Virus record (IMG/VR): IMGVR_UViG_3300045988_151777 | Coordinates: 1 to 44,073 of that record | Source: a virus | Strand: one strand, 5' to 3' | DNA: 44,073 nt | Part shown: piece after piece, positions 12,310-29,054 of the stretch | Position numbering within the stretch: position 1 is the first letter of the stretch | How the letters are laid out: each line of letters opens with the position of its first letter | Translations under genes and position numbers: made by a program | Notes under the pieces: model-generated | What the model was told of the DNA's origin: nothing | The model's input: only the letters and a program-made list of their open reading frames with translations | Databases searched by the model: none

Positions 12310-12331
12310 TTTTGAGCTCTCCGAATAAAAA

Positions 12332-12853: not shown

Positions 12854-12869
12854 TTTTTACTCTCTATCT

Positions 12870-13378: not shown

Positions 13379-13408
13379 TTGCAACTCCTTTTCGTTTTGA
13401 TTCAAAAA

Positions 13409-13654
13409 TCAGGCGGTGTTATTTTCGTTTGCAAAATCGATAAAGGCTTGAAGAATTGCCTGCGCGTCTTCGGACGTTGTTGCTTGTTCTTTGATTCCAA
13501 GTGCCGAGATATTCTGTCGTGCCTGCGCCTGCTTCGTTGCATTCAACGCCTGTGCCGACGTCTTCACCACAGTGTCCGGAATCACGTCGTCAACGATCTT
13601 GCCGTTGTTCCCCGTGTCTCCGAATAACTTTCTGAAAAACCAAGGTAACGCCAT
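13409..13654 (-). CDS. Small fibre-associated protein (81 aa)
   Basis: GGAGGAG lies before the ATG. The QALNATKQAQARQNISALG motif is common in tail-fibre proteins. Confidence 0.6.
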   Translation of the reverse strand: MALPWFFRKLFGDTGNNGKIVDDVIPDTVVKTSAQALNATKQAQARQNISALGIKEQATTSEDAQAILQAFIDFANENNTA

Positions 13655-13662
13655 GTCTCCTC

Positions 13663-14187
13663 CTACGTATCTGCGATGACGACTATCGGCATCACCGCAG
13701 GAATATCAAAACCAAACACAATCGTTGTCGCCGACGTCTCTTCCCAATCGTCCGCTAAGAACCCGCCGAGATAGACCTTGATCCGGTTCTCCCCGACGGT
13801 ATGTGAGGGAACGGCATAGGCATCCCCCGCCGTTAGTACGGCGTCCCGACTTTCGTCTGTCTGCACCGTCCGCGTTCCTGCGCCTGAGCCGCTGATGACA
13901 ACCGCCGTAATCTCAAAGTCCGTCGGGATGTCCGACGTAAAACTGATACTCGTCGTCGAGACTTCTGTGTACTCAACGCTCTTCGAGCAAAGCAGACCGT
14001 TGAGGAACACTGAGAGCGAGTTATCATCCTTGGTGTATGTAGGCACCCCGAACGCTGTCCCTGCCGTAAGCACTGTAGAGCGGTTCGAGCTGGTGAAGAC
14101 TTTGCGAGAAACGCTACCGCCTCCACCTGTCCCTCCAATCTCAACTTTCTGCAGGCCGCTTGCCGTCTTGACGTAAAGCGCGTCCAT
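13663..14187 (-). CDS. Fibre/receptor-binding accessory protein with an internal two-fold domain duplication
   Basis: Two about-70-aa repeats (VLTAGTAFGVPTYT... and VLTAGDAYAVPSHT...). It lies within the fibre cluster. Confidence 0.6.
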   Translation of the reverse strand: MDALYVKTASGLQKVEIGGTGGGGSVSRKVFTSSNRSTVLTAGTAFGVPTYTKDDNSLSVFLNGLLCSKSVEYTEVSTTSISFTSDIPTDFEITAVVISGSGAGTRTVQTDESRDAVLTAGDAYAVPSHTVGENRIKVYLGGFLADDWEETSATTIVFGFDIPAVMPIVVIADT

Positions 14188-15164: not shown

Positions 15165-16274
15165 TTAAACCTCTTCTTTGTATACAACCTTACGGCTCAA
15201 GTCGGCCACTGCCGCCGACGCTTCGCCCGCCAAAGCCAGCGCTTCAGCCACATCACCCTTGCCGAGAGCGCCGATCCAAATATCCAGCTCGTCCCCGGCC
15301 TTCGCGTCAAACGTCAGGCGGAACGTGGTGGAAAACGTATCCTGCGCCCCGACTTCCGTGAAGTTCTGCCCGATAGCAAGAACGAGGCCGTTCCAAGCAA
15401 CTCGTAGATGGTGACGGTCCACGAGGTACTTGATACCTGACGGGATGACGATATCTGTGCCAGCGGGCGTATCAGCCGACAGCGCCCAAAATTTCTCGGC
15501 GCATCCTGTGCCGTTCACGATCAGAGTGTTGTCAGCCTCAGCCTTGATCCGGTCGATCTGAGTATTACCCTCGCTGACAAGGCGCTGATCCTGCCTATCG
15601 CCTTCGGTGACAAGGCGCTGATCCTGCCTATCGCCTTCGGTGGCGAGCCGCTGATTTTGCTTGTCGCCTTCGGTGACAAGGCGCTGATACTGCCTATCGC
15701 CTTCCGTTGTAATGGCGTCGATGACTTCTTTCTGATGTTCGAGAATGTCGTCCCGACTTTTCTTCGCATCCGCCGCACTCGCGGCGGCGGCTTCCGCGTA
15801 GCCCTTAGCGATGTCCGTTGCAGTTTCAGCCGCGTCGAGGAGCTTTTGCTTCAGCTCCTGCGGGGTCATCGAGTCTGTGGGATCAGTAACAATGGCGCGC
15901 TCAACTTTCTCCAAAAGCTGCTGTGACAAAATGGTTTGTTTGTCGTCAACCTCATTAAGCGTCTCAGGATAGAAGCCGCCTTTGTTTGTAAAAACTGCCA
16001 ACTGGTTGTACGGCACGTTGCTGATAATCGCCAAGCGAATACCTTCCGCTAAGGCCTTTTTCAGCACCACCTTTCCGCCCGGGGATATGTCTTGGTTTGC
16101 GTTTAATGAAACCGTATAGTCCGTGTTGAGTACCAATGTCTCTTCGCCGTTATCGGACGAACGCGCAACAATGAGCTCACTATCCTCAAAAATTTTGAAA
16201 GAAAAAGCAAACTCTGTAGTTGCCCCGTTACCGGTATACGGCCCGGCGCGCCGAAGTGTAGAAGCGACAGTCAT
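15165..16274 (-). CDS. Tail fibre protein with N-terminal particle-attachment domain and 11-aa tandem repeats
   Basis: The N-terminus GPYTGNGATTEFAFSFKIF...DYTV resembles podovirus fibre/spike adaptor domains. It sits after the giant internal protein, as T7 gp17 does. Confidence 0.7.
   Translation of the reverse strand: MTVASTLRRAGPYTGNGATTEFAFSFKIFEDSELIVARSSDNGEETLVLNTDYTVSLNANQDISPGGKVVLKKALAEGIRLAIISNVPYNQLAVFTNKGGFYPETLNEVDDKQTILSQQLLEKVERAIVTDPTDSMTPQELKQKLLDAAETATDIAKGYAEAAAASAADAKKSRDDILEHQKEVIDAITTEGDRQYQRLVTEGDKQNQRLATEGDRQDQRLVTEGDRQDQRLVSEGNTQIDRIKAEADNTLIVNGTGCAEKFWALSADTPAGTDIVIPSGIKYLVDRHHLRVAWNGLVLAIGQNFTEVGAQDTFSTTFRLTFDAKAGDELDIWIGALGKGDVAEALALAGEASAAVADLSRKVVYKEEV
15543..15707. 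repeat. 33-bp tandem repeat array (about 5 copies) inside the tail fibre gene
   Basis: 15576-15608 and 15609-15641 are identical. Diverged copies are at 15642-15674, 15675-15707 and 15543-15575. The array encodes (TEGDRQxQRLV)n. Confidence 0.9.
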
Positions 16275-16316: not shown

Positions 16317-16335
16317 TCAACAACTGCACCCCCTA
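16317..16335 (-). promoter_or_regulatory. Conserved late-region motif, copy 4 (TAGGGGGTGCAGTTGTTGA)
   Basis: Identical 17-mer. It includes the TAG stop of the giant ORF and lies 42 nt upstream of the fibre ATG. Confidence 0.6.
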
Positions 16336-19300
16336 CTCATCGATCTTTCCGGAGAAACCGAACAACGGTGCCAGAACGGCGTCCACGCCCTCGGCCTGGC
16401 CGGATTCGATGGCACGGACGCCCTTGATCGTCCGGTTGATCTGCGTGGACGGTGCACCGGTCAGAGAGCCGGCAATGTCAACGAGGGCTTTCAACCCACG
16501 CCAACTCAAGGGATCAGTGGCCGCCTGCATTGCATTGGCCGTGTTGGCAATCATGCGGGTGCCGGCAGGGCCGTTATAGCCGAACAAAGGTTCGCCGGCG
16601 ATAAGCGACTTGGCCGTGCTGGAGACCTCTCGCAGCCCCAAGAAAAGCCCCAGGTGATATTCGACCACGGCACCCAAAGGTTTACGCAGCCACTGTTTCG
16701 TCCAGTCCTCATCGTCGTCATCATCCGAGTCATGCGCCTGCAGCGCCTCACGGAACAACGACTCAAGTACCGGCATCACGGCACCCATGAAGAGCAACCG
16801 TGCCGCAGCCTTCGCCCGGTCATTCTCGCCCATAGCTTCCACGACACCCATATTGAGCGCCGCGTTCATCCACGAGTAGAAGACCGTGAAGAGTCGCGCC
16901 CCCTGACTCCGTTCAATGGCGGACAGATCAGACACATTACCGGACGACTGCGTATCAATCACCACCTGGTCAGCCATAGCAATCGCCTTGTCCTCGGAAT
17001 TCCCCTCGCGGGTGTAACGCTCATAGGCCGCCTGCCACGCGATGGAATCCACGATATTTTGCATGATGGTCATCATGACGTAGGAGTGATCTTTGAACCA
17101 GTGCTTGCCAGACTCAAGCCGGTTCCGAACCTGCGCGATTTCACGGTTCTGCGTGAGTCCGCGCAGACGCATGGCTTCCGACTTCTTGGTGATGGCTCTA
17201 TGCAACCCCACCGGATCCGAAATGAACTTCCCGACGGCCGTCATCACGGGGGCGATCCCTACGCGCGGGATGACGTACCCTATGCCCGTCAGCTGGACAA
17301 AGGCCGACGTGACACTGAAGCCCATCGTGGCAACGCCAACATTCGCCGCCATGCGGTTGACCCAACTGTCGGCAGAGTCACGGCCGCCTGTAGCAATGTC
17401 CTTGCGCCAGTCTTCGAACTGCTTAGCCACAAGGTAACCATACCGCTCCTTAATAGCCTGACGCAGTCCAGAGTCCCGGCCGTTCACACCGTCCAAAACA
17501 CGCTTGGTTTCGATCAGCCATTCGTGCCAAGCCAGATCATGGATGACATCATTGAAGCCTTCATATAGGGCTGCTAGATCGATTCGAAGCGGCATGTGCA
17601 CGTCACCCTGCGCACGGGACTTGGTGAAGGATCGGCGCGTCGTGGCGGACTGGTAGGCACCCTGCATTTCCTGCCGGACATCGTTGGCGTCGGCGTACTT
17701 GGCCGCGCGGTTCGATCCACGGGGGTCAAACTTCACCGGATAGTAGCCGCCGGACACCTGGATGATTTTCCCTTCGGCCGTCTTCACCATGAAGGGCTGA
17801 TAGTCGATCCACTCAGGTTCCGTGCCGAATACCCGCTTTTCCTTCTCCGCAATAAGCGGACGCAACTCCTCGAATTGCTGCCACACGGCTTCAACGCCCC
17901 TCCAGTCGGCTTCCGTCAACGTAGCGAAAATGGCCTGCAGCGCTTCATCCGTGAATCGACAATCGCCATCCACCAGGCGCTGACGGTTACTGTCGTTGCC
18001 GCAGTTCAATGCCACAGCGATTCTTTGCCCGTGTGTGAGGGGCTTGGAGAACCCCGGGATGATTACCGGGTCTTCATCCTGGCTCTTCTTAAACACCGGG
18101 GCCAGCTTTTCGGCCAATGTCTTCGAGACCTTGGCGCGCATGGAGTTTTCAAACGTCGAACGCTCGTTGGCCGAACGGATGAACAAGTTCCAGAAGAAAC
18201 CGCCCGACTGGTTCTGGTCGAAGATTCGGCACCAGGACTGAATCTTGACGTGGTTCAACAAGAACTGATGCACGTTGTCGCGCCAGCGCTCCCAACGGGT
18301 AAAGGGTACTCGTTCGTTTTCAATGACGTCACGCCCCTGGCGGTCGGCCGCTTCCTTAATGGCCTCCTTGCCCTCCTTCACAATTTCATCAATACGACCC
18401 AGTTCCTCCGCAAGGTTCTGGTTATAGACGTTACGGCCCAGCGTCTCCAGCTGCTTCAACACCGAGAAGAAGTCCTGAGAGTCGTAGCCCGTCATGTCCT
18501 TGGCGTGCTCGTGCGAATCAATGAAGCGTTGCAGTCCTTCAATCGGCGTGCCGGCGTCCTCGACCTCCTTAATGAGTTCCTGCAACTGCGCCGGATCTGC
18601 GGCGAGTTTTCCGAAATCCTCCCGCTCCTTGGCCGTCATGCTCGCCACGCTGTGGGCGTCCAGCAGGGCCAGGATCAGTTTCTTGTAAGCCGGGTGAACG
18701 GTCTTACTCTTCATCGCCCGCTTAGCCATACGCACGCCACGCTGATAACGGTCGAGGGTTTCAAGGGCCGCACGAGCCATTTCGTGGTTAAGCACCTGAC
18801 CGCGCTTCGCTTCAAGGCATGCCCCGAAGTCAGCCTTGCGCATCGCTTGTTCGGCCATGGCGGCACAGCGCCGTTCGGCATTCATGAAAGTCCCCGGTCG
18901 AATGTCCGACAACTTCATGTTGCCGATCTGCTCAACCGCGTATTCGCGGGCGGCCGAGACCATCAGCTGCCGCTTGCCGAGAGCACGCGCCAGGGCATTA
19001 AATTCAGCCGTAATGAAGCGGGAACGGGTTTCGTTATGGGCGGCAAGGTTCGACTGCAACTCGTCGAATGCATCGGGATTCATGCCGCCCTCAATGCGCA
19101 CCTTGTAGGCCACGGACTTGATGGCCTCGGTCTTCGCGTCGTTCATGGACTTCAGTTCGAGTAGATCTCCGATAAGTCCGACGACGTCCGTCGTGCCGGC
19201 GGTATTGGCCAACACTTCAGGAGAGACCCCGCGGCCTTCCGTCACCCACCCGCGATCCATCAGCAACTGTGCCGTTTCCGCATCAATCCCGCAGCGGCTC

Positions 19301-22300
19301 AGCGGCTTGAGTTCAATCGTCATGCGGGACGTCGTGCCGTCCTCGCTCTTGAGGCCGTGCGTCAGCAACGACAACGCCCGGAACCGCGGTTCTTCCAGGA
19401 TTTCGTCGGTGCGCTTGTTCACTTCGTCCCTGCGTTCCCGCAGGATGCGGCGGGCCTCTTTGCGGCGAATGTTGCCGTAGATCCGCAGCACCCCGTGAAC
19501 GGCCTTAGCGATAAGGCCTTCGGCTTCTTGCGTCGCCTCTTCGTTGAGGGCGTTGTAGGCCGCCAGCTCCTCGTCGGTCATCCCCAGGCGCTTGCCGATC
19601 TCGCCGTCGAACAATGCGCGCATACCAAGTTTCTGCTGGGTCTCCATGGCCTGCTGTTCCGTGGCGAACATGAGGTCATAGAGCTTTCGGACTTCCGGGC
19701 TGATCGGGTGCGGTTGCCTTGTGGCCTGCGCGTAAATATCCATCAACCACTTTTTGAAGCGGCCGAAGATCGTCTTCATTTCTGCGTTCGGCGACACACC
19801 TTCGAGCAAGTAGGATTCGAAGCCCTCAGCAAAGAGCTCGTGCATCCCTCGCTGGTCATTGATTGGCATTGCGGCCCACGCACGGACAGCGGCAGCCACT
19901 GTCTTGAGATCATCGGTCACGCCGAGATCAAGCACGCCTTCCTGTTGTCCCCAGCGGAAAAACCCGCCGAGATTCGTGAGGAAGGCTCTCTCCCCGTCTG
20001 TCAACTCGCCGCCGGCCAATACCTTGTCCGCAATATCCTGCGCCAGCATTGTGTCGGCATCCAGCCATGCGTGAGCGGACTCATGCAGGAACGTGGACTT
20101 GTCGGCGCTTTCCATCAGCGTCATTACCCCGCCTTCGCCCGGACGTACGTCGCCGGCGTTGCTGGGCATCATGCTGCCGCGGGTTCCGGATTGTTCCGGC
20201 TGCTCGAGGATGTTGAGAATCTTGAGGGCCGTATCGTCCCAAATCACAGCACAGTTGCCGTCGGGTTCGCTGAAGTACTCAAGCCCCTTGATACCATAAA
20301 GGTTGAGGAGCTCGGAGGCCTCCTTGCTGCCGCCAGCATACGCCGTAAGCCAGCTGTAGACGTCGCGCCCTTCGGTCGAATCCTTGCCGATGAGTTCAAT
20401 CACCTTATTGCGGGCATCCGCTCGCGGGGACGTTGTGCCCTTGTCCAGGTCGTCCATGCCTTCGGCCACCAGGTCGAACGCCAAGTTCTGCAGCGCTTTC
20501 CGGACAACCACCGGCTGGTCAACCATAGCGGCTTCTTCGCTCAGAAGCACATCCGAGTCCGGAATTTCCGTCCGGTAAACGCGCCCCTCCGTGCTGGGCG
20601 TGTATTCGATGCTGTAGTCCTTCGGCTGCTGGTAGATCTTCGCGAGTTCGTTCCGCAGTTTGGACGACGTCGCCTTATCCACTTGGCCGCGTTCCGTGTC
20701 CTCGTTGAGGCGCTTGATGGCCGTCTCGGCCGCGCGCTTCACCTGCGCAGGCTTCGGATGCTTCTGCGTGCCCGGCATCTCCCGCAGCACCCACGTTGCG
20801 GCCAAGTCTTCCATGTCCGCGCTTTCGAGGTTGCGGCTGACGGGCTTCCCGTTCACCGTGTATTCCCCACCGCCGGCCAAGGCATCACGATAGCTTTCGG
20901 CCGTCTTGCGGTTCATGGCGAAGTAAAGGCCATAGCCGTGCTGCTGCGTGCCGGCGCCGGCCCCAATGTGATCCAGTGTGAAGCGGTCGAACTTGAAGGG
21001 AGAACCGTGGTAAGCCGTCTGGGCATACGCACCGGCAATACCGAGCGCAGCCTTTTCCTCGGCCTCGGCAAAGAAGGTGCCGATCTCTTCCGGAGAAGCG
21101 GAATCGAATTCGGTGTCGTCTACAATGCGGCCTTCCGGCGTGTTGTAGGACAGGGCCAGGTAATTCCCTTTGGAAGAGTTTTCAAGGATTCCCAGCTGTG
21201 CCGGCGTCGGCGGCCGCGAGATCGACGCGACTCCGTGAGCGGAATCGATTCGCATTGCACCGGTACGGGCCATGAAGTCATACATCGCCTGAACACCGCT
21301 TGTGTCCATGACTTCCGCGACGTCTGCGTGATCGACCTGACGGCCGTTAACGTCTTGTTCTTCAAGGCCCCAATGGCGTCCGGAGCCGTCCAACATCGTG
21401 CCGTCCGGAAGAATATAAAAGGCCTCGTCAATGTTATCCGTCGTGCCGAAGTTATCCACTGCCTTGCGGAGCAATTCTTCGTCCGGCGTGAAAGCGTTTT
21501 CGGAAGACTGGAAGAAACCGGTAGCCAACGCATTGTCAGCGTCCGGAAAGACTTCATGCACCAAAGCGTCGTCCGCTTCAGTCCACGTAATGTAGGGGAA
21601 GTTGTGCTTGATGCCGTTGCTGGGATCCTGGGCCAGCTTCTGCAGCTGGATCATGATCTTGCCGGGCACCTTGTACGGATCCAGCTTTCGTTCGATCTGC
21701 CGGCCATGTGCCGACGTCACGGCTGCGGCGTTGAGCGCCTGGACGCGACCCTGATACTGCGGCCGCACATTGTCGTGCTGATCCCCAAGAAGGCAAACGG
21801 CACCACCCCGGCCGAAATGGTGGACGATGTAACCGTCAAAGCCGGCCGCCTTGATAAAGTGCTCTGTCCACGTAAAAGCCCAGTCGTCGTTTGAAGACTC
21901 CTTGCGGCCCTTTGCCAACAACCCCAGCGGGTCTTCATCAAGGTCGTAGATATTGTTGAGCCAAATACTGTGCGCTTCGCGGCCAACACCTTCTTCCGGA
22001 ATGATCCCCTTTCCGGTGTCGAGATAGAAGTAGATGCGGGAGTAAACATCGCTGAGCGGCCCGGTCTTAGTGAGGCGTTTCAGTTCTTGGCCCTTCAGAC
22101 CGGTACCGTAGTAGCGAGAGTTGAGCGACGGCCGGTTGACCGCACTCATGTGAATGCCGAGTACTCGAACCGCATTGGGGCGGCCCTTTTCACCGTACTC
22201 AGCCGTAGTCGGTACGTCAGACTCGCGGACTATTCCGCCTTCGAATCTTTGGCCGCTTTCGCCCGGCGATCGTGTTCCGCGAACACCGCCTTCGGCAGAT

Positions 22301-25300
22301 CGTTCGTCCACCGATCGTACACCGCCTGTTCCTGCGGTGTATACCCCTGACTGTCCGAAGCCTCTTGGGCGGCTTGCGATTTTTGCTTTAATCGCTTGTG
22401 CCAGGCGCTTGTCTGTTTCGGACTGAAGATCAGCATCGTACCCAGCGGATGTTTCTTGTCGAACTCCGCCGCTTCTTCCGGTGTCATTTCTCGCATTTGT
22501 CTTTTCCTCTTCGGAGTAGGGCTCAAGGAAACCCGTGTAGGCATCTGAGACGCGATACACCATCTGGTCACCATAGCCTTCAACAATCGAGTTAAGCCCC
22601 GCTTTAATTGCCTCAATGTTCTCGGCGCCAACCGAAAGCATCATCACACCGCCGGCGGTGGACTGCCCCATAATCAGGCGTTCGCCGTTGGAGTCACGGA
22701 TCTGGTCGATATGGTTCCGGTAAAGGTCATCGACCTGTGCTTCGGTGAAGCCGTCCGGCAACTGGATTCGGATGACCTTGCTCGTGAACATTCCCTCGCC
22801 GTTGGTCTGGCTGATAGCCATAACCGAGTCCTGTCGCAGATAGGATGCTAACAGACGTCCGACCTTGACATAGTCTCCACCATCGGCAATACGACAAAGA
22901 ATCGAATAATTTGGGTCACCGAGATAGCCGCCGCGCTGAAGCTCAGGTTCACCAATGTGGGCATGAGTTTGTTCGGCCACACGCTCGAGCAACCACGGGA
23001 CGATTTCCCGAGTCACCGCAAGTTTATCCGCCGGCGACAATTCGTTCCACTGGGCCACGGCTTCCGCGTTGTTCGGATCCGGTGCGGCCTCCATCGTAAG
23101 CACCGGCTCGGGTTCCGGCTGACGGACGTCGTCGTAAAGCGTGACGCCGCTGCGGTCGTAGGTCTCCGTAATCCGGTCATTGAAAGGCGTGTCCTGCCAC
23201 GACAGTTTCGACAAGCCGCCGGCCGCGTCGAAGATCTTCTGTCGGGCCTCATCCGCCGAAATCTTGCCGGCGTCGAACTCCTTCCAAATGTCGTCAACCA
23301 CTGAGCGCAAGACTCGTTTGCGGTTCGGCTCAAAGAGGACTCGCACGGCCTCCCAGGTAATCGACTGTATCTCACGGGGGCTGAGGCCCACGCGTTCGGC
23401 CGCACGGCGGTAGGCTTCAAAGTGAAGCGGGTACGTGCCGTTCTGGCCGGACGTCTTGTTGCCGACGGCGCCAAAGTTGTCCTGCACCGGCTGACTGTTG
23501 GAGCTCTGAATCGTCAGGGTATCCGCACCCACGGCATGCGTGTCAATCGTCGCGGCCTTGGCGTTACTCGGGTCGTAAAGATTGTTGTAGAAGTCGCGTA
23601 CCTTGAACTGCGTACCGATCTTGTCATAGATGTTGTCTACGCTACCGTCCACGATAACCGATAGGGCGTCGGCGATGGACTGCGGGTTAAAGAAGAACGC
23701 CTTCGCCGGCTTCCCCTGACCGCCGGGCACACTCGCCAAACCGCCTACCCCGCCTTCAGGAGTGAGCACGTTGTAAGTGGACGGATTCGTTACGGCATCG
23801 TACGCGCGCACCCACAACGCGGCTCCGCGCATCTGATCGGCCTGAATGAGTTCTTCCAGGGACTTGCCCTTGATCTCGTCGAAGCTGACCTTCTTATCGG
23901 ACTCGCACAGAGTTTTCAACGCCGTCTGCATTTCGGCCGACGGCTTCTCGCGCCGGGCGCTGAAGTAAATATCAAACAAGCGTTCGGCGTTGGTCATGTT
24001 GTTGAACCAGCCGTTCTGGGGGCTGAAGATGGCAATCACGGCCGCCACCTGACGCAAGCGCAGACCGTAGCGCTGAGCCCACACACGGGCTGTCTTGTTG
24101 CCGCCGTCATACCACAACTTAGCGCGTTCACGTTCTGCCGCCGGCATCTTGTCATAAAGCCAAACAAGATTGTCGGCCATAAAGTCAATGATGCGTTCGG
24201 ACGCCTTACCGGCATTCCGGACACGGCCAACGGCACCCTTTACGCCGGGGATGGTTTTCATGGCCGCCACGGCGCGTTCAAAGTAGCGGCTGTTTTTCTT
24301 GGCTTCAGCGAAGTCTGCCCACTGCCGCGCGAACCGCGGGTTCGGGTAGTCCCCCTTCTTCACGGCGGCCTCAGACGGCATAGCCGTGGAAAGCTGCTGT
24401 TGGAACGCCGGAGTTTGCGACTGCTGCCGACGGATCCGTAGATTCATCTTGCCCATGATTTCCTTGGGGCTCAATCCGGTCTGCTTGGCACGGATAGCCA
24501 GCCAAGAAGCCCAGGGACGCGTCTGCAAGTCGGCCACATCTTCAGCCGTGCCGGCGTCGATCAACTGCTTGCGAATAGCGGCAACCTCGGTGTCAATGGC
24601 CTTACGCATCTCGGCGTCGGGCTTCGTGTCCTTCACTATCTTGTCGAAGGCCGCCACGGCTTCCTGTTTGCCGTTCTTCATGAAGTCCTCAGCCTGACGC
24701 GGACTCATGCCGTCGGCATCTACGCGGGACTCATAAAGGAGACTGTTGGCCGCTGCTTCATCCGTCGCTGCCAACTTCACGACGTCAGACACGGGGATAG
24801 CAACGTCGGACTTATTCTGGGCTGCCGTCTCAATGCGGGCCGCGAGTTCCGGAGCGGCCTGGCGAATCTTGTCTGGAACGCCGGCATCCACCAAGTCCTG
24901 AGCAAACGAGAACACGGACTTATCCTGGCCGACGTCGTTGGCCCATTCGGCAATCGTCTGGCCGTCCTTCACCTGTGTCCCCATGGCGGCCACGGCGGCC
25001 GTCACCCTCTGCATATTCTCGCCCAGCACCTTGGCAGCCTGCGCCTGTTGCTGTTGCGCGTTGTAGGCCGCGTTCACTGAAGCGCTCATAGAGACGACTT
25101 CCACCGGTGCAGACGTGAGTTCCCCAATGGCTTCAAAGAGGACGTCGGCCCAGTTGATTTCGTCACCGGCGGCAAGCGAACCGAGCGCTTCGCCGGCGCC
25201 GCCTAAGACACCCTGCAATCCGGCCTGCGTGAGGTGGTTCTCAAGGTTGTAGCCCCACATACCCCCGCGGGACGTCGGCGTTGCAGAGCGGGCCATACCG

Positions 25301-26289
25301 AAGGCTTCCGGAATGCTCTTCACCTTGTCCACGCCGTGCAAGCCGCTTGCCTTCAGAATGCCGGCGGCATCACGCACGGTACGGATGGCGTTACTCGGGT
25401 TGAGGCGGATAGGTGCCGCCAGGGCTGCCACGGCATCGAACGCCCCCACGACGGCCGCGCGCTTCTTCCCCTTTTCGTAGGTCTCGGCCATGTCGTCCGC
25501 CTGCAGGGCCGTACGCATGGCGTCAGGGTTCTGCAGGTCAATCCCCTTTTCCTGCATAGCTTTGATCAGGTAATTGCCCAACTCGTTGTCGTAGGAGCCC
25601 TTAAACATCGTCGCCATCTGGACAGCACGGGCGGCCGACGTCAGGCGCGCCGCACCCAACAAACCGCCGCCGGCGGCCGACAAAGCCATGTAGGGGGCAA
25701 TGGCACCAAGCGAAGACGTGCCGAGATACAAGGCCGAGCTCAACGGATCCGCGGCCATCTCAGTCAAGGCCGTTCCGAGCCCGCTCCAAAAACCCTTGCC
25801 CTTGGCCTTCTGGGATGCGTTCTGAACCGCCAAGGGCGTTACATACTCCTTGTCCTTCTTTGCTAAATCTGCGTACTCGTAGATTGCCTTGTCGCGCGCG
25901 GCCGCCTGCTTTTCCTTGTAGTCCCGGTTCGCCTGCGTATCGCGAGAAAGCAGTTCCTTCACGGACTCGTCTTCGTCATCATCCACCAACGCAGAAAGCC
26001 CGGCCTGAGCTGCCTGCTCAGCCTCATAGGCTGCCGTCGCCGCACGGGACTTCTGCAGCCCGTGGTAGCCGCCTTCAAGGCCGTTCATCAGGCGCTCCGT
26101 GACGCTCATCTGCTCCCACGTCGGCACCTCGCCCTGCGGGTTCGGAGAGCGCAGCACCGCTTTGGCCGTGGCCGGGGTATCGGTAAAACGCATCGTCGGC
26201 AACTGTCCGGCCGGCGTCACAGCCTGAGACGCACGCAGCCCATCGTCTTCGGCTTCCATATCGGAAAGAATCTTTGCGTAATCAGTCAT
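16333..26289 (-). CDS. Giant internal virion (ejected) protein, gp16-position, polyvalent multi-domain (3,318 aa)
   Basis: Uninterrupted 9,957-nt ORF between gp15-like and fibre genes. HESAH zincin motif at aa 2069-2073 (nt 20071-20085). AYHGSPFKFDRF...HGYGLYFA block at aa 1759-1791. Hydrophobic C-terminal helices. Confidence 0.8.
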   Translation of the reverse strand: MTDYAKILSDMEAEDDGLRASQAVTPAGQLPTMRFTDTPATAKAVLRSPNPQGEVPTWEQMSVTERLMNGLEGGYHGLQKSRAATAAYEAEQAAQAGLSALVDDDEDESVKELLSRDTQANRDYKEKQAAARDKAIYEYADLAKKDKEYVTPLAVQNASQKAKGKGFWSGLGTALTEMAADPLSSALYLGTSSLGAIAPYMALSAAGGGLLGAARLTSAARAVQMATMFKGSYDNELGNYLIKAMQEKGIDLQNPDAMRTALQADDMAETYEKGKKRAAVVGAFDAVAALAAPIRLNPSNAIRTVRDAAGILKASGLHGVDKVKSIPEAFGMARSATPTSRGGMWGYNLENHLTQAGLQGVLGGAGEALGSLAAGDEINWADVLFEAIGELTSAPVEVVSMSASVNAAYNAQQQQAQAAKVLGENMQRVTAAVAAMGTQVKDGQTIAEWANDVGQDKSVFSFAQDLVDAGVPDKIRQAAPELAARIETAAQNKSDVAIPVSDVVKLAATDEAAANSLLYESRVDADGMSPRQAEDFMKNGKQEAVAAFDKIVKDTKPDAEMRKAIDTEVAAIRKQLIDAGTAEDVADLQTRPWASWLAIRAKQTGLSPKEIMGKMNLRIRRQQSQTPAFQQQLSTAMPSEAAVKKGDYPNPRFARQWADFAEAKKNSRYFERAVAAMKTIPGVKGAVGRVRNAGKASERIIDFMADNLVWLYDKMPAAERERAKLWYDGGNKTARVWAQRYGLRLRQVAAVIAIFSPQNGWFNNMTNAERLFDIYFSARREKPSAEMQTALKTLCESDKKVSFDEIKGKSLEELIQADQMRGAALWVRAYDAVTNPSTYNVLTPEGGVGGLASVPGGQGKPAKAFFFNPQSIADALSVIVDGSVDNIYDKIGTQFKVRDFYNNLYDPSNAKAATIDTHAVGADTLTIQSSNSQPVQDNFGAVGNKTSGQNGTYPLHFEAYRRAAERVGLSPREIQSITWEAVRVLFEPNRKRVLRSVVDDIWKEFDAGKISADEARQKIFDAAGGLSKLSWQDTPFNDRITETYDRSGVTLYDDVRQPEPEPVLTMEAAPDPNNAEAVAQWNELSPADKLAVTREIVPWLLERVAEQTHAHIGEPELQRGGYLGDPNYSILCRIADGGDYVKVGRLLASYLRQDSVMAISQTNGEGMFTSKVIRIQLPDGFTEAQVDDLYRNHIDQIRDSNGERLIMGQSTAGGVMMLSVGAENIEAIKAGLNSIVEGYGDQMVYRVSDAYTGFLEPYSEEEKTNARNDTGRSGGVRQETSAGYDADLQSETDKRLAQAIKAKIASRPRGFGQSGVYTAGTGGVRSVDERSAEGGVRGTRSPGESGQRFEGGIVRESDVPTTAEYGEKGRPNAVRVLGIHMSAVNRPSLNSRYYGTGLKGQELKRLTKTGPLSDVYSRIYFYLDTGKGIIPEEGVGREAHSIWLNNIYDLDEDPLGLLAKGRKESSNDDWAFTWTEHFIKAAGFDGYIVHHFGRGGAVCLLGDQHDNVRPQYQGRVQALNAAAVTSAHGRQIERKLDPYKVPGKIMIQLQKLAQDPSNGIKHNFPYITWTEADDALVHEVFPDADNALATGFFQSSENAFTPDEELLRKAVDNFGTTDNIDEAFYILPDGTMLDGSGRHWGLEEQDVNGRQVDHADVAEVMDTSGVQAMYDFMARTGAMRIDSAHGVASISRPPTPAQLGILENSSKGNYLALSYNTPEGRIVDDTEFDSASPEEIGTFFAEAEEKAALGIAGAYAQTAYHGSPFKFDRFTLDHIGAGAGTQQHGYGLYFAMNRKTAESYRDALAGGGEYTVNGKPVSRNLESADMEDLAATWVLREMPGTQKHPKPAQVKRAAETAIKRLNEDTERGQVDKATSSKLRNELAKIYQQPKDYSIEYTPSTEGRVYRTEIPDSDVLLSEEAAMVDQPVVVRKALQNLAFDLVAEGMDDLDKGTTSPRADARNKVIELIGKDSTEGRDVYSWLTAYAGGSKEASELLNLYGIKGLEYFSEPDGNCAVIWDDTALKILNILEQPEQSGTRGSMMPSNAGDVRPGEGGVMTLMESADKSTFLHESAHAWLDADTMLAQDIADKVLAGGELTDGERAFLTNLGGFFRWGQQEGVLDLGVTDDLKTVAAAVRAWAAMPINDQRGMHELFAEGFESYLLEGVSPNAEMKTIFGRFKKWLMDIYAQATRQPHPISPEVRKLYDLMFATEQQAMETQQKLGMRALFDGEIGKRLGMTDEELAAYNALNEEATQEAEGLIAKAVHGVLRIYGNIRRKEARRILRERRDEVNKRTDEILEEPRFRALSLLTHGLKSEDGTTSRMTIELKPLSRCGIDAETAQLLMDRGWVTEGRGVSPEVLANTAGTTDVVGLIGDLLELKSMNDAKTEAIKSVAYKVRIEGGMNPDAFDELQSNLAAHNETRSRFITAEFNALARALGKRQLMVSAAREYAVEQIGNMKLSDIRPGTFMNAERRCAAMAEQAMRKADFGACLEAKRGQVLNHEMARAALETLDRYQRGVRMAKRAMKSKTVHPAYKKLILALLDAHSVASMTAKEREDFGKLAADPAQLQELIKEVEDAGTPIEGLQRFIDSHEHAKDMTGYDSQDFFSVLKQLETLGRNVYNQNLAEELGRIDEIVKEGKEAIKEAADRQGRDVIENERVPFTRWERWRDNVHQFLLNHVKIQSWCRIFDQNQSGGFFWNLFIRSANERSTFENSMRAKVSKTLAEKLAPVFKKSQDEDPVIIPGFSKPLTHGQRIAVALNCGNDSNRQRLVDGDCRFTDEALQAIFATLTEADWRGVEAVWQQFEELRPLIAEKEKRVFGTEPEWIDYQPFMVKTAEGKIIQVSGGYYPVKFDPRGSNRAAKYADANDVRQEMQGAYQSATTRRSFTKSRAQGDVHMPLRIDLAALYEGFNDVIHDLAWHEWLIETKRVLDGVNGRDSGLRQAIKERYGYLVAKQFEDWRKDIATGGRDSADSWVNRMAANVGVATMGFSVTSAFVQLTGIGYVIPRVGIAPVMTAVGKFISDPVGLHRAITKKSEAMRLRGLTQNREIAQVRNRLESGKHWFKDHSYVMMTIMQNIVDSIAWQAAYERYTREGNSEDKAIAMADQVVIDTQSSGNVSDLSAIERSQGARLFTVFYSWMNAALNMGVVEAMGENDRAKAAARLLFMGAVMPVLESLFREALQAHDSDDDDDEDWTKQWLRKPLGAVVEYHLGLFLGLREVSSTAKSLIAGEPLFGYNGPAGTRMIANTANAMQAATDPLSWRGLKALVDIAGSLTGAPSTQINRTIKGVRAIESGQAEGVDAVLAPLFGFSGKIDE
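22230..22496 (-). CDS. Embedded alternate-frame ORF (88 aa) inside the giant ORF
   Basis: GAGGA lies 8 nt before ATG 22496, and a second ATG is at 22487. Hand-counted GC3 is about 64 percent here, against about 42 percent for the giant frame over the same bases. The K/E/Q-rich sequence looks protein-like, while the giant frame reads G/R/S-rich. Confidence 0.45.
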   Translation of the reverse strand: MREMTPEEAAEFDKKHPLGTMLIFSPKQTSAWHKRLKQKSQAAQEASDSQGYTPQEQAVYDRWTNDLPKAVFAEHDRRAKAAKDSKAE

Positions 26290-26300
26290 AGTTTTCTCGG

Positions 26301-28439
26301 TTATTTACGGACAAGGCGGGCGTTCAAAAGAGCGCGCGCAATCGTGTGTTGATCCGGTTCGGCGCCGTTGTGGGACGCCTGATAGGCCTGGCGTATCTGT
26401 TGTACTTCAGACACCGGCGCAGCATTGATGAATTGACTCTCCCCTGGGAACGGCCGCCGTGGATTGAGGAAGCACGTAATCAGGAATTCCGAGCGATCCA
26501 AGTCTTTCGGTTCCGGATAGCCCGTCGCCTTAAGGGCCGCGTCGGCCATGTCGCGCACGCCCTTGTCATTCCAAAACGATTCCTTACTGAGGAAATCGGC
26601 CACCTTGTAGTCCGACTTCCAAAGCGTCCCAATGGTGGTGAATTGCGTTTGAACCGCGGCAACCACTTCCTTACGAATTCGCTCATCGTCCCATCCCTTT
26701 CCGAAGTCCGTGTTCACCTTGTCAATCACGCTGTCGGCAATGGCACGGGAGATTCGGGAGTAGAACGCCTTGTCGGTCTTGCCTTCAGGCTTAAGCCCCT
26801 GGCGCTCTAGGGCGTCCTCCACGGACTTAATCACTGTCGCCGAGTTGTCCTTCGTGCCCGCCCCTTGTTCGAGCATCACCTTTCGGTTCGCCAAGGTGTC
26901 GAAGTCCTTGGGCGTGAAGCTACCGGCCATGGCATAAAGGTCGGCCCATTCGGTGTTCTTCAGTTTCTCGTTGTCGTACGCGAGGCTGTAGAAAAGGGCG
27001 CTGTCCGTCGTGAAACTATTGAGTCGGCGACGGCGGGAATACTCAGCCATACCGGCTCGCTGGGGATCTGACAGACCTTCCATCTGAGCCGCGGGAATGT
27101 CCTCAATATCCGTGCCGGCGTGAAGGTTGGTGAACACCTGAGCCGCCCGCTGGTTGCGTTCCTCCCGTTCCACACGGTTGGCGTACTGCCGCTGCTCGAA
27201 AATAGTTTTCGTCACTTTTTCGACCGTGGCCGGATCCAGATCAGGGTTGGCCTCAATCACCTGCATTCGGATCGTGTCCTTGTCTCCGGAACGGACGGCT
27301 TCAATCGTGTTTCGGTAGCGGGCCAGGGCGACTTTCTGCTGCGGGTTCAAGGCCTCTTCCAGCGGGTTTTGCTGCTGCAGTTTGGCGACGGCGGCCTGAT
27401 CCCCGCGTTCCTGAGCGTCGAAAACCTCCCGCGTCCAGTTATCCACGAGTTCCTTCGCCTTCTCCGCCCCAAGCAGATATGCCGCCGGCGCCCATTCCGG
27501 ACGGCCGGCATCAGAGACAAGATTCGTCGCCTTACTGAAATCCTTGGGGTCAAAGTCCTTCCCTGTGGCCGGCGCCAGGCGGGACTTCGCCACGGATTCC
27601 GGAGACAGAGAATTAACCGTCTGCGTCGCGGCCTGAGCTGCCGTTGCAGCGGCCGCTTTCTTCTGTAGCGCGTCACGGATCAACGGCTGCACCTTCAGGA
27701 CGTCGTAGGCCGTGAGTTTGTTCCCGCGGTAATGCCGCAAAACGGCCTGCGCCTGTTCGGGGTTGTCGTTTGCCAAAAGGGTCTTGATCCCGTCCACAAT
27801 GGCGCCGCTCACGCCGTCGGCAATCCCCTTCTTAATCGACTCTTCTGGTTCCCCGCGATGGATCGTGCGGTAGGCGTCCTCGTACGTCTTGGCGTTTTCT
27901 TCGACACTGCGAATGTCGGACGGGTTGACCGTGATTGTTTCGGCCGCTATGGATCCGGACGTCTTGGCCGTCTCCTTCTGGTAGGCGTCCGCCTCCTTCA
28001 CCATGTGGTTCGTCAACTCCAGTTGCCGGTCGGCGCGGTAGCGTTTCAGGCGATCCGTCAGCAAACCGCGCTGGTACTGGTCTAAGTTCTGGATCCGGTC
28101 ACCGATGATCTTGCTGATCTCGTCGTCGTAGTGCTTCACAAACGGGCCGTCCTGGCGCTCCACAACGTCGGTGCCGGTCTGATGCAAGGCACCGCCATCA
28201 CCGTTCATGAGGTCGTTCACCTGGATCTGAATGTCGTTCATGGCCGCATCAGCGCGGGCCTTGGACATCCGTTCGTAGGCGTCGTTGGTAGCCCTCAAAA
28301 ATTCGTTGGAAGCCTCCATGGCCTGCGCGGCCGCCTTCTTCGCCACGGCATCGCCGCCGGTCTTCAAAAGCCCTGCGGCCTCACCCTGCGGCATGGTCGG
28401 GTTGACCCGCGGCCCATCGGGCATCGGAACTATTGCCAT
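26301..28439 (-). CDS. Internal virion protein (gp15-position, 712 aa)
   Basis: Size and position match the T7-like order. It is a helical, charged sequence. Confidence 0.65.
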   Translation of the reverse strand: MAIVPMPDGPRVNPTMPQGEAAGLLKTGGDAVAKKAAAQAMEASNEFLRATNDAYERMSKARADAAMNDIQIQVNDLMNGDGGALHQTGTDVVERQDGPFVKHYDDEISKIIGDRIQNLDQYQRGLLTDRLKRYRADRQLELTNHMVKEADAYQKETAKTSGSIAAETITVNPSDIRSVEENAKTYEDAYRTIHRGEPEESIKKGIADGVSGAIVDGIKTLLANDNPEQAQAVLRHYRGNKLTAYDVLKVQPLIRDALQKKAAAATAAQAATQTVNSLSPESVAKSRLAPATGKDFDPKDFSKATNLVSDAGRPEWAPAAYLLGAEKAKELVDNWTREVFDAQERGDQAAVAKLQQQNPLEEALNPQQKVALARYRNTIEAVRSGDKDTIRMQVIEANPDLDPATVEKVTKTIFEQRQYANRVEREERNQRAAQVFTNLHAGTDIEDIPAAQMEGLSDPQRAGMAEYSRRRRLNSFTTDSALFYSLAYDNEKLKNTEWADLYAMAGSFTPKDFDTLANRKVMLEQGAGTKDNSATVIKSVEDALERQGLKPEGKTDKAFYSRISRAIADSVIDKVNTDFGKGWDDERIRKEVVAAVQTQFTTIGTLWKSDYKVADFLSKESFWNDKGVRDMADAALKATGYPEPKDLDRSEFLITCFLNPRRPFPGESQFINAAPVSEVQQIRQAYQASHNGAEPDQHTIARALLNARLVRK

Positions 28440-28454: not shown

Positions 28455-29054
28455 CTAACCCCAGGTCGAGGGATATTCGTCGGACGCTGCAGCGTTTGTA
28501 GATCCGCCGGTGTCCTCTGCCGGCGCGTTGCGGGACGCCTGATCCACGTAGTAGCCGGCCACCTTCGTGATTCCGGTAAGCAGACTGTCGGCCGCCACCA
28601 GACCTGAATTAGACTTGTTGCCGCCCGCAGCGATGCTCGCCTGATACTGAGCCGTTGCCTTGCTCATGTAGCCCATGGCTGCATTGAGGCCGTTGGCGTA
28701 GGCCGTGTTGGCGTCCTGCTGCTTATAGAGGTCGGTCGTCGCCAAAATCTCTTTGCTGGATCCGTACCCAATGGCGATACCGTTGGCGGCCATAGCGACG
28801 CGCTGCTTGCTCTTTAAGCGCCCGTACTGGCCCGTGATGTTGGCGATATTGCGGTTCGAGGCGGCAAGCGCTGCCTGCGCCTGAATCGTTGCCCGCTGCT
28901 GATTGATCTCGGCGATACGCTGCTGTATCCGCGACAGTTCCGTCGCTGAGCGTGACGCCTGATAACTGGTAAAAATGCTGCCGACGGCCTGAATCGCGGT
29001 GCCCCAAAGCCCCGCGGTCTGGACGGTCGTCAAGCCTGTGGATTCTCCGGCCAT
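28455..29054 (-). CDS. Internal virion protein (gp14-position, 199 aa)
   Basis: Position after tail tube B. A/G/Q/S-rich with a hydrophobic N-terminal segment. Confidence 0.6.
   Translation of the reverse strand: MAGESTGLTTVQTAGLWGTAIQAVGSIFTSYQASRSATELSRIQQRIAEINQQRATIQAQAALAASNRNIANITGQYGRLKSKQRVAMAANGIAIGYGSSKEILATTDLYKQQDANTAYANGLNAAMGYMSKATAQYQASIAAGGNKSNSGLVAADSLLTGITKVAGYYVDQASRNAPAEDTGGSTNAAASDEYPSTWG

What the first reader, a model, noticed from the sequence alone, without database searches (positions are those of the whole stretch)
16333..26289. 3,318-codon polyvalent-type internal virion protein with a zincin HExxH site and an ART-like block
Size and position:
- One uninterrupted ORF covers about 23 percent of the genome.
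- It occupies the position of the T7 gp16 ejected core protein, after the gp14- and gp15-like ORFs and before the fibre gene.
- It is about 2.5 times larger than gp16.

Modules in the roughly 2,000 aa beyond a gp16-sized N-terminal part:
- a conserved-looking block at aa 695-990 (LWYDGGNKTARVWAQRYG...FSPQNGW...KVRDFYNNL...IDTHA...REIQSITWEAVR);
- blocks at about aa 1380-1510 and 1595-1700;
- AYHGSPFKFDRFTLDHIGAGAGTQQHGYGLYFA at aa 1759-1791 (nt 20917-21015), which I recall from ART-like modules of phage/ICE polyvalent proteins;
- an exact HESAH at nt 20071-20085, with a downstream MHELFAEGFESY, consistent with a zincin metallopeptidase;
- hydrophobic helices near the C-terminus.

Interpretation: this architecture suggests a cocktail of effectors injected with the DNA, for example anti-defence or host-takeover enzymes.
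Basis: partly seen in the sequence, partly recalled or inferred. Interest (0 to 1): 0.8.

Follow-up and report, generated by a model that had tools for sequence, protein, structure and literature searches.

The report
Giant phage ejection protein carrying effector modules
This 3,318-residue gene encodes the large protein that a temperate short-tailed phage injects with its DNA, enlarged by about 1,400 residues of swappable effector-like modules; this design has been described before, so it is a well-documented new example rather than a new kind of system.

Summary
The ORF and every quoted motif are real and at the stated coordinates. It lies on the minus strand.

It sits in a T7-type structural module, after homologues of the gp14 and gp15 internal virion proteins and before the fibre gene.

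Its last ~1,280 aa are 35% identical to Bordetella phage BPP-1 Bbp10. Hardies et al. 2016 list Bbp10 as a T7 gp16 (IVP-D) homologue. The extra material is a ~1,400-aa insert (aa ~640-2035) between two backbone parts.

- **Polyvalent reading: supported.** Relatives (1,850-3,709 aa) carry LPD22, ART-PolyVal, DUF7178, PBECR nucleases, MuF_C, Zeta toxin and RadC-JAB in the same position. Modules are exchanged between near-identical phages. All modules are under purifying selection.
- **ART-like block: partly supported.** It is homologous to ART-PolyVal over the His and Tyr motifs (hhalign 96%). It is below the Pfam threshold, lacks the canonical Asp, and Foldseek is not significant.
- **Zincin claim: rests on the motif only.** HExxH and two downstream Glu are invariant in ~77 homologues and belong to the backbone. 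No profile or fold search links the module to a peptidase.

Verdict: a new member of a known kind.

The parts
16333..26289 (-). Whole ORF, 3,318 aa: giant internal virion (ejection) protein of the BPP-1 Bbp10 family
   Evidence: full-length relatives at 97-98% identity on five IMG/VR contigs
24370..26289 (-). N-terminal backbone, aa 1-640. It is weakly conserved across the family (21-30% identity, e.g. aa 424-619 to Bbp10 397-595). No Pfam match; the LPD22 domain found in most relatives is not detected here.
23170..24318 (-). DUF7178 unit, aa 658-1040. It has many invariant polar residues (LWYDG, SPQ..W, HKVRNFYNN, TIDTHA, QSITWE). Function unknown.
   Evidence: Pfam PF23802 E 5e-20 to 7e-24; 3,445 representative clusters match the middle region, mostly proteins of 2,000-5,000 aa; invariant columns; no PDB relative
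22510..23106 (-). Module M3, aa 1062-1260. It usually follows DUF7178 in relatives. Function unknown.
22180..22509 (-). Low-complexity Gly/Arg/Ser/Glu-rich linker, aa 1261-1370, under relaxed constraint
   Evidence: sequence; dN/dS 0.8-1.1
21736..22179 (-). Module M4, aa 1371-1518. It belongs to its own family, with motifs H[YF]S, GTGxKGxE, RxYFY, PExGVG, NLYD and AGFDGY. It may be a second ART-PolyVal-like domain. The segment is swapped between near-identical phages.
   Evidence: 75 copies collected; hhalign to canonical ART-PolyVal 30%, E 5e-4 against a background of at most 4.5%; dS 1.05 against 0.03-0.05 in the flanking modules, versus L006; no Pfam hit
21040..21504 (-). Module M5, aa 1596-1750. 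Function unknown. Present in a few other giant proteins.
20185..21039 (-). Module M6, aa 1751-2035: divergent ART-PolyVal-related domain with two helical inserts. H1761 lies in AYHGS and Y1789 in GLYFA. K2001 sits where canonical members have the Asp of GYDG.
19510..20184 (-). HExxH module, aa 2036-2260, the first part of the conserved C-terminal core. H2069, E2070, H2073, E2151 and E2158 are invariant.
16336..19509 (-). Rest of the conserved C-terminal core, aa 2261-3318 (phrog_9880; Bbp10-like), with moderately hydrophobic segments at aa 2980-3024 and 3161-3183
26301..28439 (-). Upstream 712-aa protein in the gp15 (IVP-C) position. It is homologous to the ends of BPP-1 Bbp11 but lacks Bbp11's SLT domain.
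28455..29054 (-). gp14-like internal virion protein (IVP-B)
   Evidence: phrog_418 E 4e-11; 42% identity to Bbp12
15165..16274 (-). Downstream tail fibre/spike gene with a T7 gp17-type N-terminal adaptor

Best explanation
The ORF encodes the large ejection protein (internal virion protein D type, BPP-1 Bbp10 family) of a temperate BPP-1/epsilon15-like podovirus.

**Architecture**
- The backbone is about 1,900 aa: an N-terminal ~640 aa plus a C-terminal ~1,280 aa that begins with a conserved HExxH module.
- This backbone is what the family shares. By synteny and by published HMM comparisons it is the counterpart of T7 gp16 and of the C-terminal part of the N4 virion RNA polymerase.
- Between the two backbone parts the protein has acquired about 1,400 aa of cargo: a DUF7178 unit, M3, a flexible linker, M4, a short unassigned stretch (aa 1519-1595), M5, and a divergent ART-PolyVal-like domain.

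**Inferred mechanism (not shown here)**
- The protein is packaged in the capsid core next to the gp14- and gp15-like proteins.
- It is ejected through the tail at infection.
- The backbone helps build the trans-envelope DNA conduit.
- The cargo modules reach the cell before any phage gene is expressed and act on host or defence components.
- The ART-like module most plausibly binds NAD+ and transfers ADP-ribose.
- The HExxH module may hold a metal and cut the polypeptide, or another substrate, at the cargo/core junction.

**What is shown**
- The architecture.
- Homology to Bbp10.
- The polyvalent domain repertoire of relatives.
- Module exchange between close relatives.
- Purifying selection on every module.
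For: **Context and backbone**
- Gene order is terminase, portal, scaffold/protease, capsid, tail tubular A and B, IVP-B, IVP-C-like, this ORF, then fibre.
- Residues 2055-3312 align to Bbp10 783-2048 at 35% identity, including HESGH and HEQFARGFEAY.
- BPP-1 has the same gene order.
- phrog_9880 matches aa 2052-3304 at E 5e-239.
- Hardies et al. 2016 (PMC4819975) list Bbp10 as an IVP-D homologue. They state that the N4 gp50 C-terminal domain is one too, and that IVPs host domains destined for the cytoplasm.

**Family variation**
- 80 IMG/VR relatives have ORFs of 1,850-3,709 aa, with a constant C-terminal core and a variable region upstream of it.
- The variable regions of 34 relatives carry the polyvalent repertoire of Iyer et al. 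2017 (PMC5512222).

**ART-like module**
- Homologues are labelled PF18760.
- H and Y are invariant.
- hhalign to canonical ART-PolyVal gives 96%, E 4e-9. The 34 comparisons between unrelated module profiles give at most 4.5%; the only other pair above that is M4 against canonical ART-PolyVal at 30%.

**Selection and exchange**
- dN/dS against L004 is 0.02-0.10 for the backbone, DUF7178, M5, M6 (0.09) and the HExxH module (0.03), but about 0.8 for the linker.
- M4 plus the linker is replaced by a diverged allele in L006. M3 is replaced in L003. L004 has an extra ~320-aa insert with LPD23 after aa 631.
Against: - I could not detect sequence similarity of the core to T7 gp16, epsilon15 gp15-17 or any PDB chain. 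Similarity to N4-like gp50 C-termini was limited to a 27-column strand-plus-HExxH motif (P 0.003). The IVP-D assignment therefore rests on synteny and on the literature.
- No module of the window protein except DUF7178 passes a curated Pfam threshold.
- The ART-like module lacks the canonical Asp: K2001 in the window, Pro in its subfamily. It has also lost several residues that are nearly invariant in its family, e.g. GAGAG in place of GTGEG.
- Foldseek gives no significant ART or peptidase match.
- Packaging, ejection, processing and every enzymatic activity are untested.
Confidence: 0.72

Rival explanations
1. The HExxH module is not a protease. It is a conserved helical part of the ejection-protein backbone in which the His/Glu residues hold a structural metal, or serve another role such as conformational switching or membrane or peptidoglycan contact.
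For: - The motif is present in every family member, including those with almost no cargo (1,850-1,860 aa). It therefore tracks the backbone, not the effectors.
- The AF2 model (pLDDT 86.5) is nearly all helix with only two 3-residue strands. It lacks the 3-stranded sheet and N-terminal helix of the zincin core.
- Foldseek against PDB finds no peptidase.
- Neither the PDB profile search nor Pfam finds anything for the window protein.
Against: - The pattern is the gluzincin arrangement: HExxH in one helix plus invariant Glu (E2151, E2158) in a later helix.
- A few relatives give weak hits to Peptidase_M3, Mx, M91 and M50B.
- Iyer et al. assigned the analogous HExxH region of N4 gp50 to zincins by HHpred.
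- My modelled slice starts only 32 residues before the motif, so upstream elements could have been cut off.
Confidence: 0.4
2. The ART-like module (aa 1751-2035) is a catalytically dead or repurposed descendant of ART-PolyVal, for example an NAD+ or nucleotide binder or a purely structural spacer.
For: - It scores below the Pfam cut-off.
- The canonical Asp of GYDG is Lys in the window and Pro in the subfamily.
- E35 of the GTGEG loop and other near-invariant acidic residues are lost.
- There are two large helical inserts, and Foldseek is not significant.
Against: - H1761 and Y1789 are invariant.
- dN/dS is 0.09-0.2.
- Its own sub-clade keeps an acidic residue (E1918) in the loop after the RVYRTEI strand, and keeps VIWDD.
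- The subfamily is large and conserved as stand-alone proteins of 300-540 aa.
Confidence: 0.35
3. The added modules work in the cell envelope, for example in breaching peptidoglycan or membranes or lengthening the conduit, rather than as cytoplasmic effectors.
For: - The gp15-position neighbour lacks the SLT domain that Bbp11 and epsilon15 gp15 carry, so a muralytic activity seems to be missing.
- None of the 10 DUF7178-bearing loci has a detectable SLT.
Against: - That anticorrelation is confounded by relatedness, and 40 loci lack both.
- DUF7178 shows no profile similarity to SLT.
- Relatives carry nucleases, a Zeta toxin and ART domains, which have cytoplasmic targets.
Confidence: 0.15
4. 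The giant ORF is an assembly or sequencing artefact that fuses several genes.
For: Public protein sets hold many short fragments of homologues (170-480 aa).
Against: - Five independent contigs carry the same uninterrupted ORF.
- There are dozens of relatives of 2,000-3,700 aa and representatives up to 5,118 aa.
- Purifying selection runs the whole length.
Confidence: 0.02

Closest known systems
Bordetella phage BPP-1 Bbp10 (2,052 aa; annotated 'crystallin beta/gamma motif-containing protein') and its homologues in Rauchvirus-like Caulobacter, Xanthomonas, Vibrio and Pseudomonas podophages
   Same: - It occupies the same genomic position.
- It is 35% identical over the C-terminal ~1,270 aa, including the HExxH and HE.FA.GFE.Y motifs.
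- There is weak N-terminal similarity.
- It is polyvalent in its own right, with LPD22 and PBECR1.
   Different: - The window protein is 1,266 aa longer.
- It has no detectable LPD22 or PBECR1.
- It carries DUF7178, M3, M4, M5 and an ART-like module instead.
- Its gp15-position neighbour has no SLT domain.
Phage-type polyvalent proteins (Iyer, Burroughs, Anand, de Souza, Aravind 2017, PMC5512222)
   Same: - It is a giant late-gene protein that strings together unrelated effector-type domains.
- It has an ART-PolyVal-related module and an HExxH module.
- The proposed delivery with the DNA is the same.
   Different: - In the window protein only DUF7178 passes a Pfam threshold.
- The HExxH module is not recognised by any Pfam model, MPTase-PolyVal included.
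- Several modules (M3, M4, M5) are not among the described LPDs as far as Pfam can tell.
T7 gp16 (internal virion protein D) and the N4 gp50 virion RNA polymerase, whose C-terminal part is an IVP-D homologue according to Hardies et al. 2016, PMC4819975
   Same: - The synteny matches T7 gp14-gp15-gp16-gp17.
- The core is ~1,290 aa, against gp16 at 1,318 aa and N4-like C-terminal parts at 1,270-1,340 aa measured from their HExxH.
- N4 likewise has cargo N-terminal to a core that begins with a strand followed by HExxH.
   Different: - No sequence similarity was detectable here to T7 gp16.
- Only a 27-column motif match to N4-like proteins was found.
- T7 gp16 has an N-terminal lytic transglycosylase and no equivalent HExxH.
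- N4's cargo is an RNA polymerase.
Pfam ART-PolyVal (PF18760; the Tox-ART-HYD2 clade, with an H-Y-D active site)
   Same: - The His motif (YHGS) lies in a predicted strand and the Tyr motif (GLYFA) in the next strand.
- hhalign gives 96%.
   Different: - It scores below the gathering threshold.
- It has two helical inserts.
- The canonical Asp position is Lys.
- No significant structural match to solved ARTs was found.

Membership tests
BPP-1 Bbp10 family (phrog_9880) of podophage giant virion proteins | Full-length homology of the C-terminal ~1,270 aa core | tested here: met
   35% identity over 1,312 columns; phrog_9880 E 5e-239; 49 phage records and 410 IMG/VR stretches match
BPP-1 Bbp10 family (phrog_9880) of podophage giant virion proteins | Position between the gp15-like protein and the fibre gene in a T7-type structural module | tested here: met
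T7 gp16 / IVP-D ejection proteins | Detectable sequence or profile homology to T7 gp16 | tested here: inconclusive
   Nothing was found by family HMM or hhalign against T7 gp16 (best P 0.036) or by PDB profile search. Hardies et al. 2016 list Bbp10 as an IVP-D homologue, using joined HMMs that I could not reproduce.
T7 gp16 / IVP-D ejection proteins | Presence in the virion core and ejection into the host | not testable with these tools
   Needs virion proteomics and infection assays.
Phage-type polyvalent proteins (Iyer et al. 2017) | Several unrelated effector-type domains in one late-gene polypeptide, drawn from the polyvalent repertoire | tested here: met
   The window protein has DUF7178 (above threshold), an ART-PolyVal-related module and at least three further conserved modules. 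Relatives carry LPD22, LPD23, PBECR1/3/5, MuF_C, ART-PolyVal, Zeta toxin and RadC-JAB.
ART-PolyVal (PF18760) | Score above the Pfam gathering threshold (31.2 bits) | tested here: not met
   16.8 bits for the whole protein and 18.8 bits for the slice; only profile positions 9-47 of 140 are matched
ART-PolyVal (PF18760) | His in strand 1 and Tyr in strand 2 | tested here: met
   H1761 and Y1789 are invariant in 31 homologues. They lie in predicted strands 13-19 and 44-47 of the model. hhalign to canonical members gives 96%, E 4e-9.
ART-PolyVal (PF18760) | Asp in strand 5 (the Asp of GYDG in canonical members) | tested here: not met
   The aligned position is K2001 in the window and Pro in its subfamily. 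Other acidic residues (E1918/E1919, D2018/D2019) might substitute, but this is unverified.
ART-PolyVal (PF18760) | ART fold recognisable by structure comparison | tested here: inconclusive
   The model has pLDDT 83. The best Foldseek hit is MbcT (6fkg_B, an ART-like toxin) at E 0.21, and tankyrase ranks 26th. Nothing has E <= 0.001.
Zincin / gluzincin metallopeptidases (including the polyvalent MPTase) | HExxH in a helix plus a downstream helix supplying a Glu ligand | tested here: met
   H2069, E2070 and H2073 lie in helix 28-55 of the model. The invariant E2151 and E2158 lie in helix 107-127. The geometry was not measured because no coordinates were available.
Zincin / gluzincin metallopeptidases (including the polyvalent MPTase) | Core beta-sheet (three strands) and N-terminal helix preceding the active-site helix | tested here: not met
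   Only two 3-residue strands are predicted upstream, and family conservation begins at the RG motif about 30 aa before HExxH.
Zincin / gluzincin metallopeptidases (including the polyvalent MPTase) | Profile or fold similarity to a known metallopeptidase | tested here: not met
   Pfam finds nothing for the window protein. In 22 relatives only sporadic sub-threshold hits appear (Peptidase_M3 E 0.005; Mx, M91 and M50B about 0.03). The PDB profile search finds nothing. Foldseek against PDB finds no peptidase. BFVD returns only family members.

The most novel reading that the evidence does not exclude
Two readings remain open.
- **HExxH as a self-processing or gating element.** The HExxH module would be an ancestral element at the head of the IVP-D core. 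It would be shared by this family and by N4-type virion RNA polymerases: both have a strand followed by HExxH, then about 1,300 aa to the C-terminus. Its role would be to release whatever cargo is fused upstream once the protein has been ejected.
- **DUF7178+M3 and M4 as new injected enzymes.** The DUF7178+M3 unit (more than 3,400 protein clusters) and the M4 family would be new, uncharacterised classes of injected enzymes. M4 would be a cryptic second ART-like domain.
Probability: 0.2. Interest if true: 0.6.

Novelty: new member of a known kind. Interest (0 to 1): 0.4.

Why it matters
Proteins injected with phage DNA act before any phage gene is expressed, so they are prime candidates for the first strike against host defences.

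- This locus gives a cleanly delimited example. Its cargo boundaries can be read from comparison with about 80 relatives. Near-identical phages differ by whole modules, which is the pattern expected from an arms race.
- It points to three conserved but uncharacterised modules (DUF7178+M3, M4, M5) that could be cloned and tested individually.
- It shows that the HExxH site belongs to the ejection backbone itself. This changes which experiment is informative: mutate it and look at assembly, processing and ejection, not at host toxicity.

It does not change the general picture already drawn by Iyer et al. 2017 and Hardies et al. 2016.

Tried and rejected
- **Whole-protein homologue search:** timed out.
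- **Megablast of the ORF against phage records:** no match, so there is no close cultured relative.
- **phmmer and profile searches of PDB sequences:** nothing found with the whole protein, the C-terminal core, the HExxH module or the DUF7178 unit.
- **NCBIfam:** nothing.
- **Foldseek of both AF2 models against PDB:** nothing significant. BFVD returned only unannotated family members.
- **hhalign of the family core against N4-like gp50 C-termini (11 sequences):** only the HExxH motif aligned. Homology to N4 is therefore not claimed from my data.
- **hmmsearch and hhalign against T7 gp15/gp16 and epsilon15 gp15-17:** nothing.
- **Test of whether DUF7178 replaces the missing SLT domain:** there is no overlap between SLT-bearing and DUF7178-bearing loci. 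However, 40 loci have neither, the DUF7178 loci are close relatives of each other, and my upstream-gene filter missed some SLT genes. There is also no profile similarity between DUF7178 and SLT. I rejected this as evidence.
- **Host identification through bacterial genomes:** only one 4.5-kb contig in an Anaerovoracaceae bin at 69% identity, which is uninformative.
- **My first slicing of the protein:** it cut M4 in two. I corrected this after printing the numbered sequence and rescanned.

Full report
**1. The observation**

The window holds one uninterrupted minus-strand ORF at 16333..26289, 3,318 codons.
- HESAH at aa 2069-2073, nt 20071-20085.
- AYHGSPFKF from aa 1759.
- MHELFAEGFESY at aa 2149-2160.
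- The block motifs at aa 725-983.

A single HExxH is expected only 0.05 times by chance in this protein. More importantly, it is invariant in about 77 homologues.

The ORF is not an artefact. Five independent IMG/VR contigs carry it full-length at 97-98% identity (3,320-3,326 aa) or as a 3,709-aa variant.

**2. Context**

The minus strand carries a T7-type structural module. In order it encodes:
- large terminase
- portal
- scaffold/protease
- major capsid protein
- tail tubular A and B
- a phrog_418 internal virion protein
- a 712-aa protein
- the giant ORF
- a fibre gene with a T7 gp17-type N-terminus

The phage is temperate. It has an integrase, a CI-like repressor, an Ant antirepressor, a RecE-like exonuclease and RusA.

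The closest cultured relatives are Bordetella phage BPP-1 and other Rauchvirus-like podophages, which have the same gene order. The 199-aa and 712-aa neighbours are homologous to Bbp12 and Bbp11. The 712-aa protein lacks the SLT domain of Bbp11.

**3. Anatomy**

Residues 2055-3312 align with Bbp10 residues 783-2048 at 35% identity. They match phrog_9880 at E 5e-239.

In 80 IMG/VR relatives the ORF ranges from about 1,850 to 3,709 aa. What is constant is:
- the C-terminal ~1,280 aa;
- more weakly, an N-terminal ~600 aa (window aa ~140-650, 21-30% identity).

What varies lies between these two parts.

The cargo is an insert at aa ~640-2035. From the numbered sequence and module-wise searches I divide it as follows:

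| Module | Residues |
|---|---|
| DUF7178 unit | 658-1040 |
| M3 | 1062-1260 |
| Gly/Arg/Ser-rich linker | 1261-1370 |
| M4 | 1371-1518 |
| Short unassigned stretch | 1519-1595 |
| M5 | 1596-1750 |
| ART-like M6 | 1751-2035 |

**4. Is it polyvalent?**

Yes, in the sense of Iyer et al. 2017 (PMC5512222). A Pfam scan of the variable regions of 34 diverse relatives found:
- LPD22 in 29
- ART-PolyVal in 17 (best E 8e-38)
- DUF7178 in 7
- MuF_C
- PBECR1/3/5
- LPD23
- RadC-JAB
- Zeta toxin
- DUF3293
- GNAT

Bbp10 itself has LPD22 and PBECR1.

The middle region of the window protein matches 3,445 representative protein clusters, most of them 2,000-5,000 aa. Of the top 150, 70 share this same C-terminal core.

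**5. The ART-like block**

Evidence for:
- Homologues of aa 1745-2055 are almost all labelled PF18760 (173 hits, best E 6e-15).
- H1761 and Y1789 are invariant.
The 34 comparisons between unrelated module profiles never exceeded 4.5%.
- With a permissive alignment the C-terminal GIPGIKY...NYVVFDD lines up with the canonical GYDGV...vvF.P.QIKS.

Evidence against:
- Pfam ART-PolyVal hits only at 16.8-18.8 bits (cut-off 31.2), over profile positions 9-47.
- The family's third catalytic residue (Asp; Iyer et al.) is Lys in the window and Pro in its subfamily.
- The window copy has also lost the Glu of the GTGEG loop.
- The AF2 model (pLDDT 83) has two long helical inserts.
- Foldseek finds nothing significant. 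Its top hit, MbcT, is an ART-like toxin, but at E 0.21.

The module is under purifying selection, with dN/dS 0.09 against L004.

Conclusion: it is a true relative of ART-PolyVal, and its activity is uncertain.

**6. The HExxH module**

What the family shows:
- Conservation begins abruptly at ..RG.F.P....I.LL..AD.STFLHE.GH, about 30 residues before the motif.
- HExxH, E2151 and E2158 are invariant.
- The module is present even in relatives with hardly any cargo, so it belongs to the backbone.

What the searches show:
- The AF2 model (pLDDT 86.5) puts HExxH in a long helix and the two Glu in a later helix. It has only two 3-residue strands upstream.
- Foldseek against PDB finds no peptidase and nothing significant.
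- BFVD returns only family members.
- The profile search of PDB sequences finds nothing.
- Pfam finds nothing in the window protein. In 22 relatives it finds only sporadic sub-threshold hits to Peptidase_M3, Mx, M91 and M50B.

The zincin reading therefore rests on motif pattern and conservation alone.

Iyer et al. assigned an analogous HExxH in the N4 gp50 C-terminal region to zincins. My hhalign of this family against 11 N4-like C-termini aligned only that 27-column strand-plus-HExxH motif (P 0.003). Both kinds of protein run about 1,270-1,340 aa from the motif to the end.

**7. Relation to T7 gp16**

The evidence here is synteny and size. My family HMM and hhalign found nothing in T7 gp16 or epsilon15 gp15-17. 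The PDB profile search also found nothing.

Hardies et al. 2016 (PMC4819975) used podovirus-only joined HMMs. They list Bbp10 as an IVP-D homologue. They identify the N4 gp50 C-terminal domain as another. [quoted passage not shown] The concept is thus already published.

**8. Evolutionary signal**

dN/dS against the 93%-identical relative L004:

| Region | dN/dS |
|---|---|
| Both backbone parts, DUF7178, M5, M6, HExxH module | 0.02-0.10 |
| Linker | about 0.8 |

Module exchange between near-identical phages:
- In L006 the linker plus M4 has dS 0.6-1.05, against 0.03-0.05 in the neighbouring modules. This indicates replacement by a diverged allele.
- M3 is similarly replaced in L003.
- L004 has an extra ~320 aa with LPD23 after aa 631.

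This module exchange fits cargo under diversifying pressure.

**9. Other modules**

- **DUF7178.** It has many invariant polar residues, typical of an enzyme. It has no relative in PDB and no profile similarity to SLT or ART.
- **M4.** It defines its own family of 75 copies, with motifs H[YF]S, GTGxKGxE, RxYFY, PExGVG, NLYD and AGFDGY. Its C-terminal half aligns to canonical ART-PolyVal at 30% probability, E 5e-4. That is above background but not conclusive.
- **M3 and M5.** Neither has an assignable family.

**10. Verdict**

- Polyvalent internal virion protein: yes.
- ART-like: homologous, but atypical.
- Zincin: unproven, and part of the backbone.
- Domain order: wrong.

This is a new, large and well-resolved member of a known kind.

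Noticed in passing
L004:2765-13894 (IMGVR_UViG_3300045988_148821), compared with window 16333-26289: A relative that is 85-95% identical carries an extra ~320-aa insert, containing an LPD23 domain, right after aa 631. This is exactly at the backbone/cargo boundary. Its M4 region is only 46% identical.
   Followed up: partly
window 21736-22509 (aa 1261-1518), compared with L006 and L010: The linker plus M4 has dS 0.6-1.05, while the flanking modules have dS 0.03-0.05. This is a recombination patch inside the gene between near-identical phages. M3 shows the same pattern against L003.
   Followed up: partly
window 26301-28439 (-): The gp15-position protein is homologous to the N- and C-terminal parts of BPP-1 Bbp11 but lacks its central SLT lytic transglycosylase. 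No muralytic domain was recognised anywhere in the three ejection proteins.
   Followed up: partly
L083:9524-20026 and L086-L095 (N4-like gp50 genes): In N4-like virion RNA polymerases the stretch from the HExxH motif to the C-terminus is 1,270-1,340 aa. This is the same as in the Bbp10 family (~1,290 aa). The motif has the same strand-then-helix context (IYL..S.ETL.HELVHA).
   Followed up: partly
window 37014-37496 (-): A GNAT acetyltransferase-like ORF (phrog_1249, E 3e-13) lies between the large terminase and the portal gene. Hardies et al. note acetyltransferase-family genes, the family of T7 IVP-A, in podovirus structural modules.
   Followed up: no
window 1017-6715 and 39898-43561: There is a lysogeny and recombination gene set: RecE-like exonuclease (1017-1931), Ant antirepressor (3640-4446), integrase (5366-6715), RusA (39898-40272), a primosomal/replication protein (41593-42489) and a CI/UmuD-like repressor (42890-43561). 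No tRNA gene was found.
   Followed up: partly
window 4001-7000 and 11001-14000: G+C content drops to 0.46-0.47, against 0.55-0.61 elsewhere. The dips lie around the integrase and around the small genes downstream of the fibre genes, which suggests recently acquired segments.
   Followed up: no
P0123-P0131 (public protein fragments): Several short predicted proteins (168-259 aa) consist of a MuF_C domain followed by the RG...HESAH start of the core. They stop about 40 residues after the motif. They may be truncated gene calls or frameshifted homologues in which MuF_C sits directly upstream of the HExxH module.
   Followed up: no
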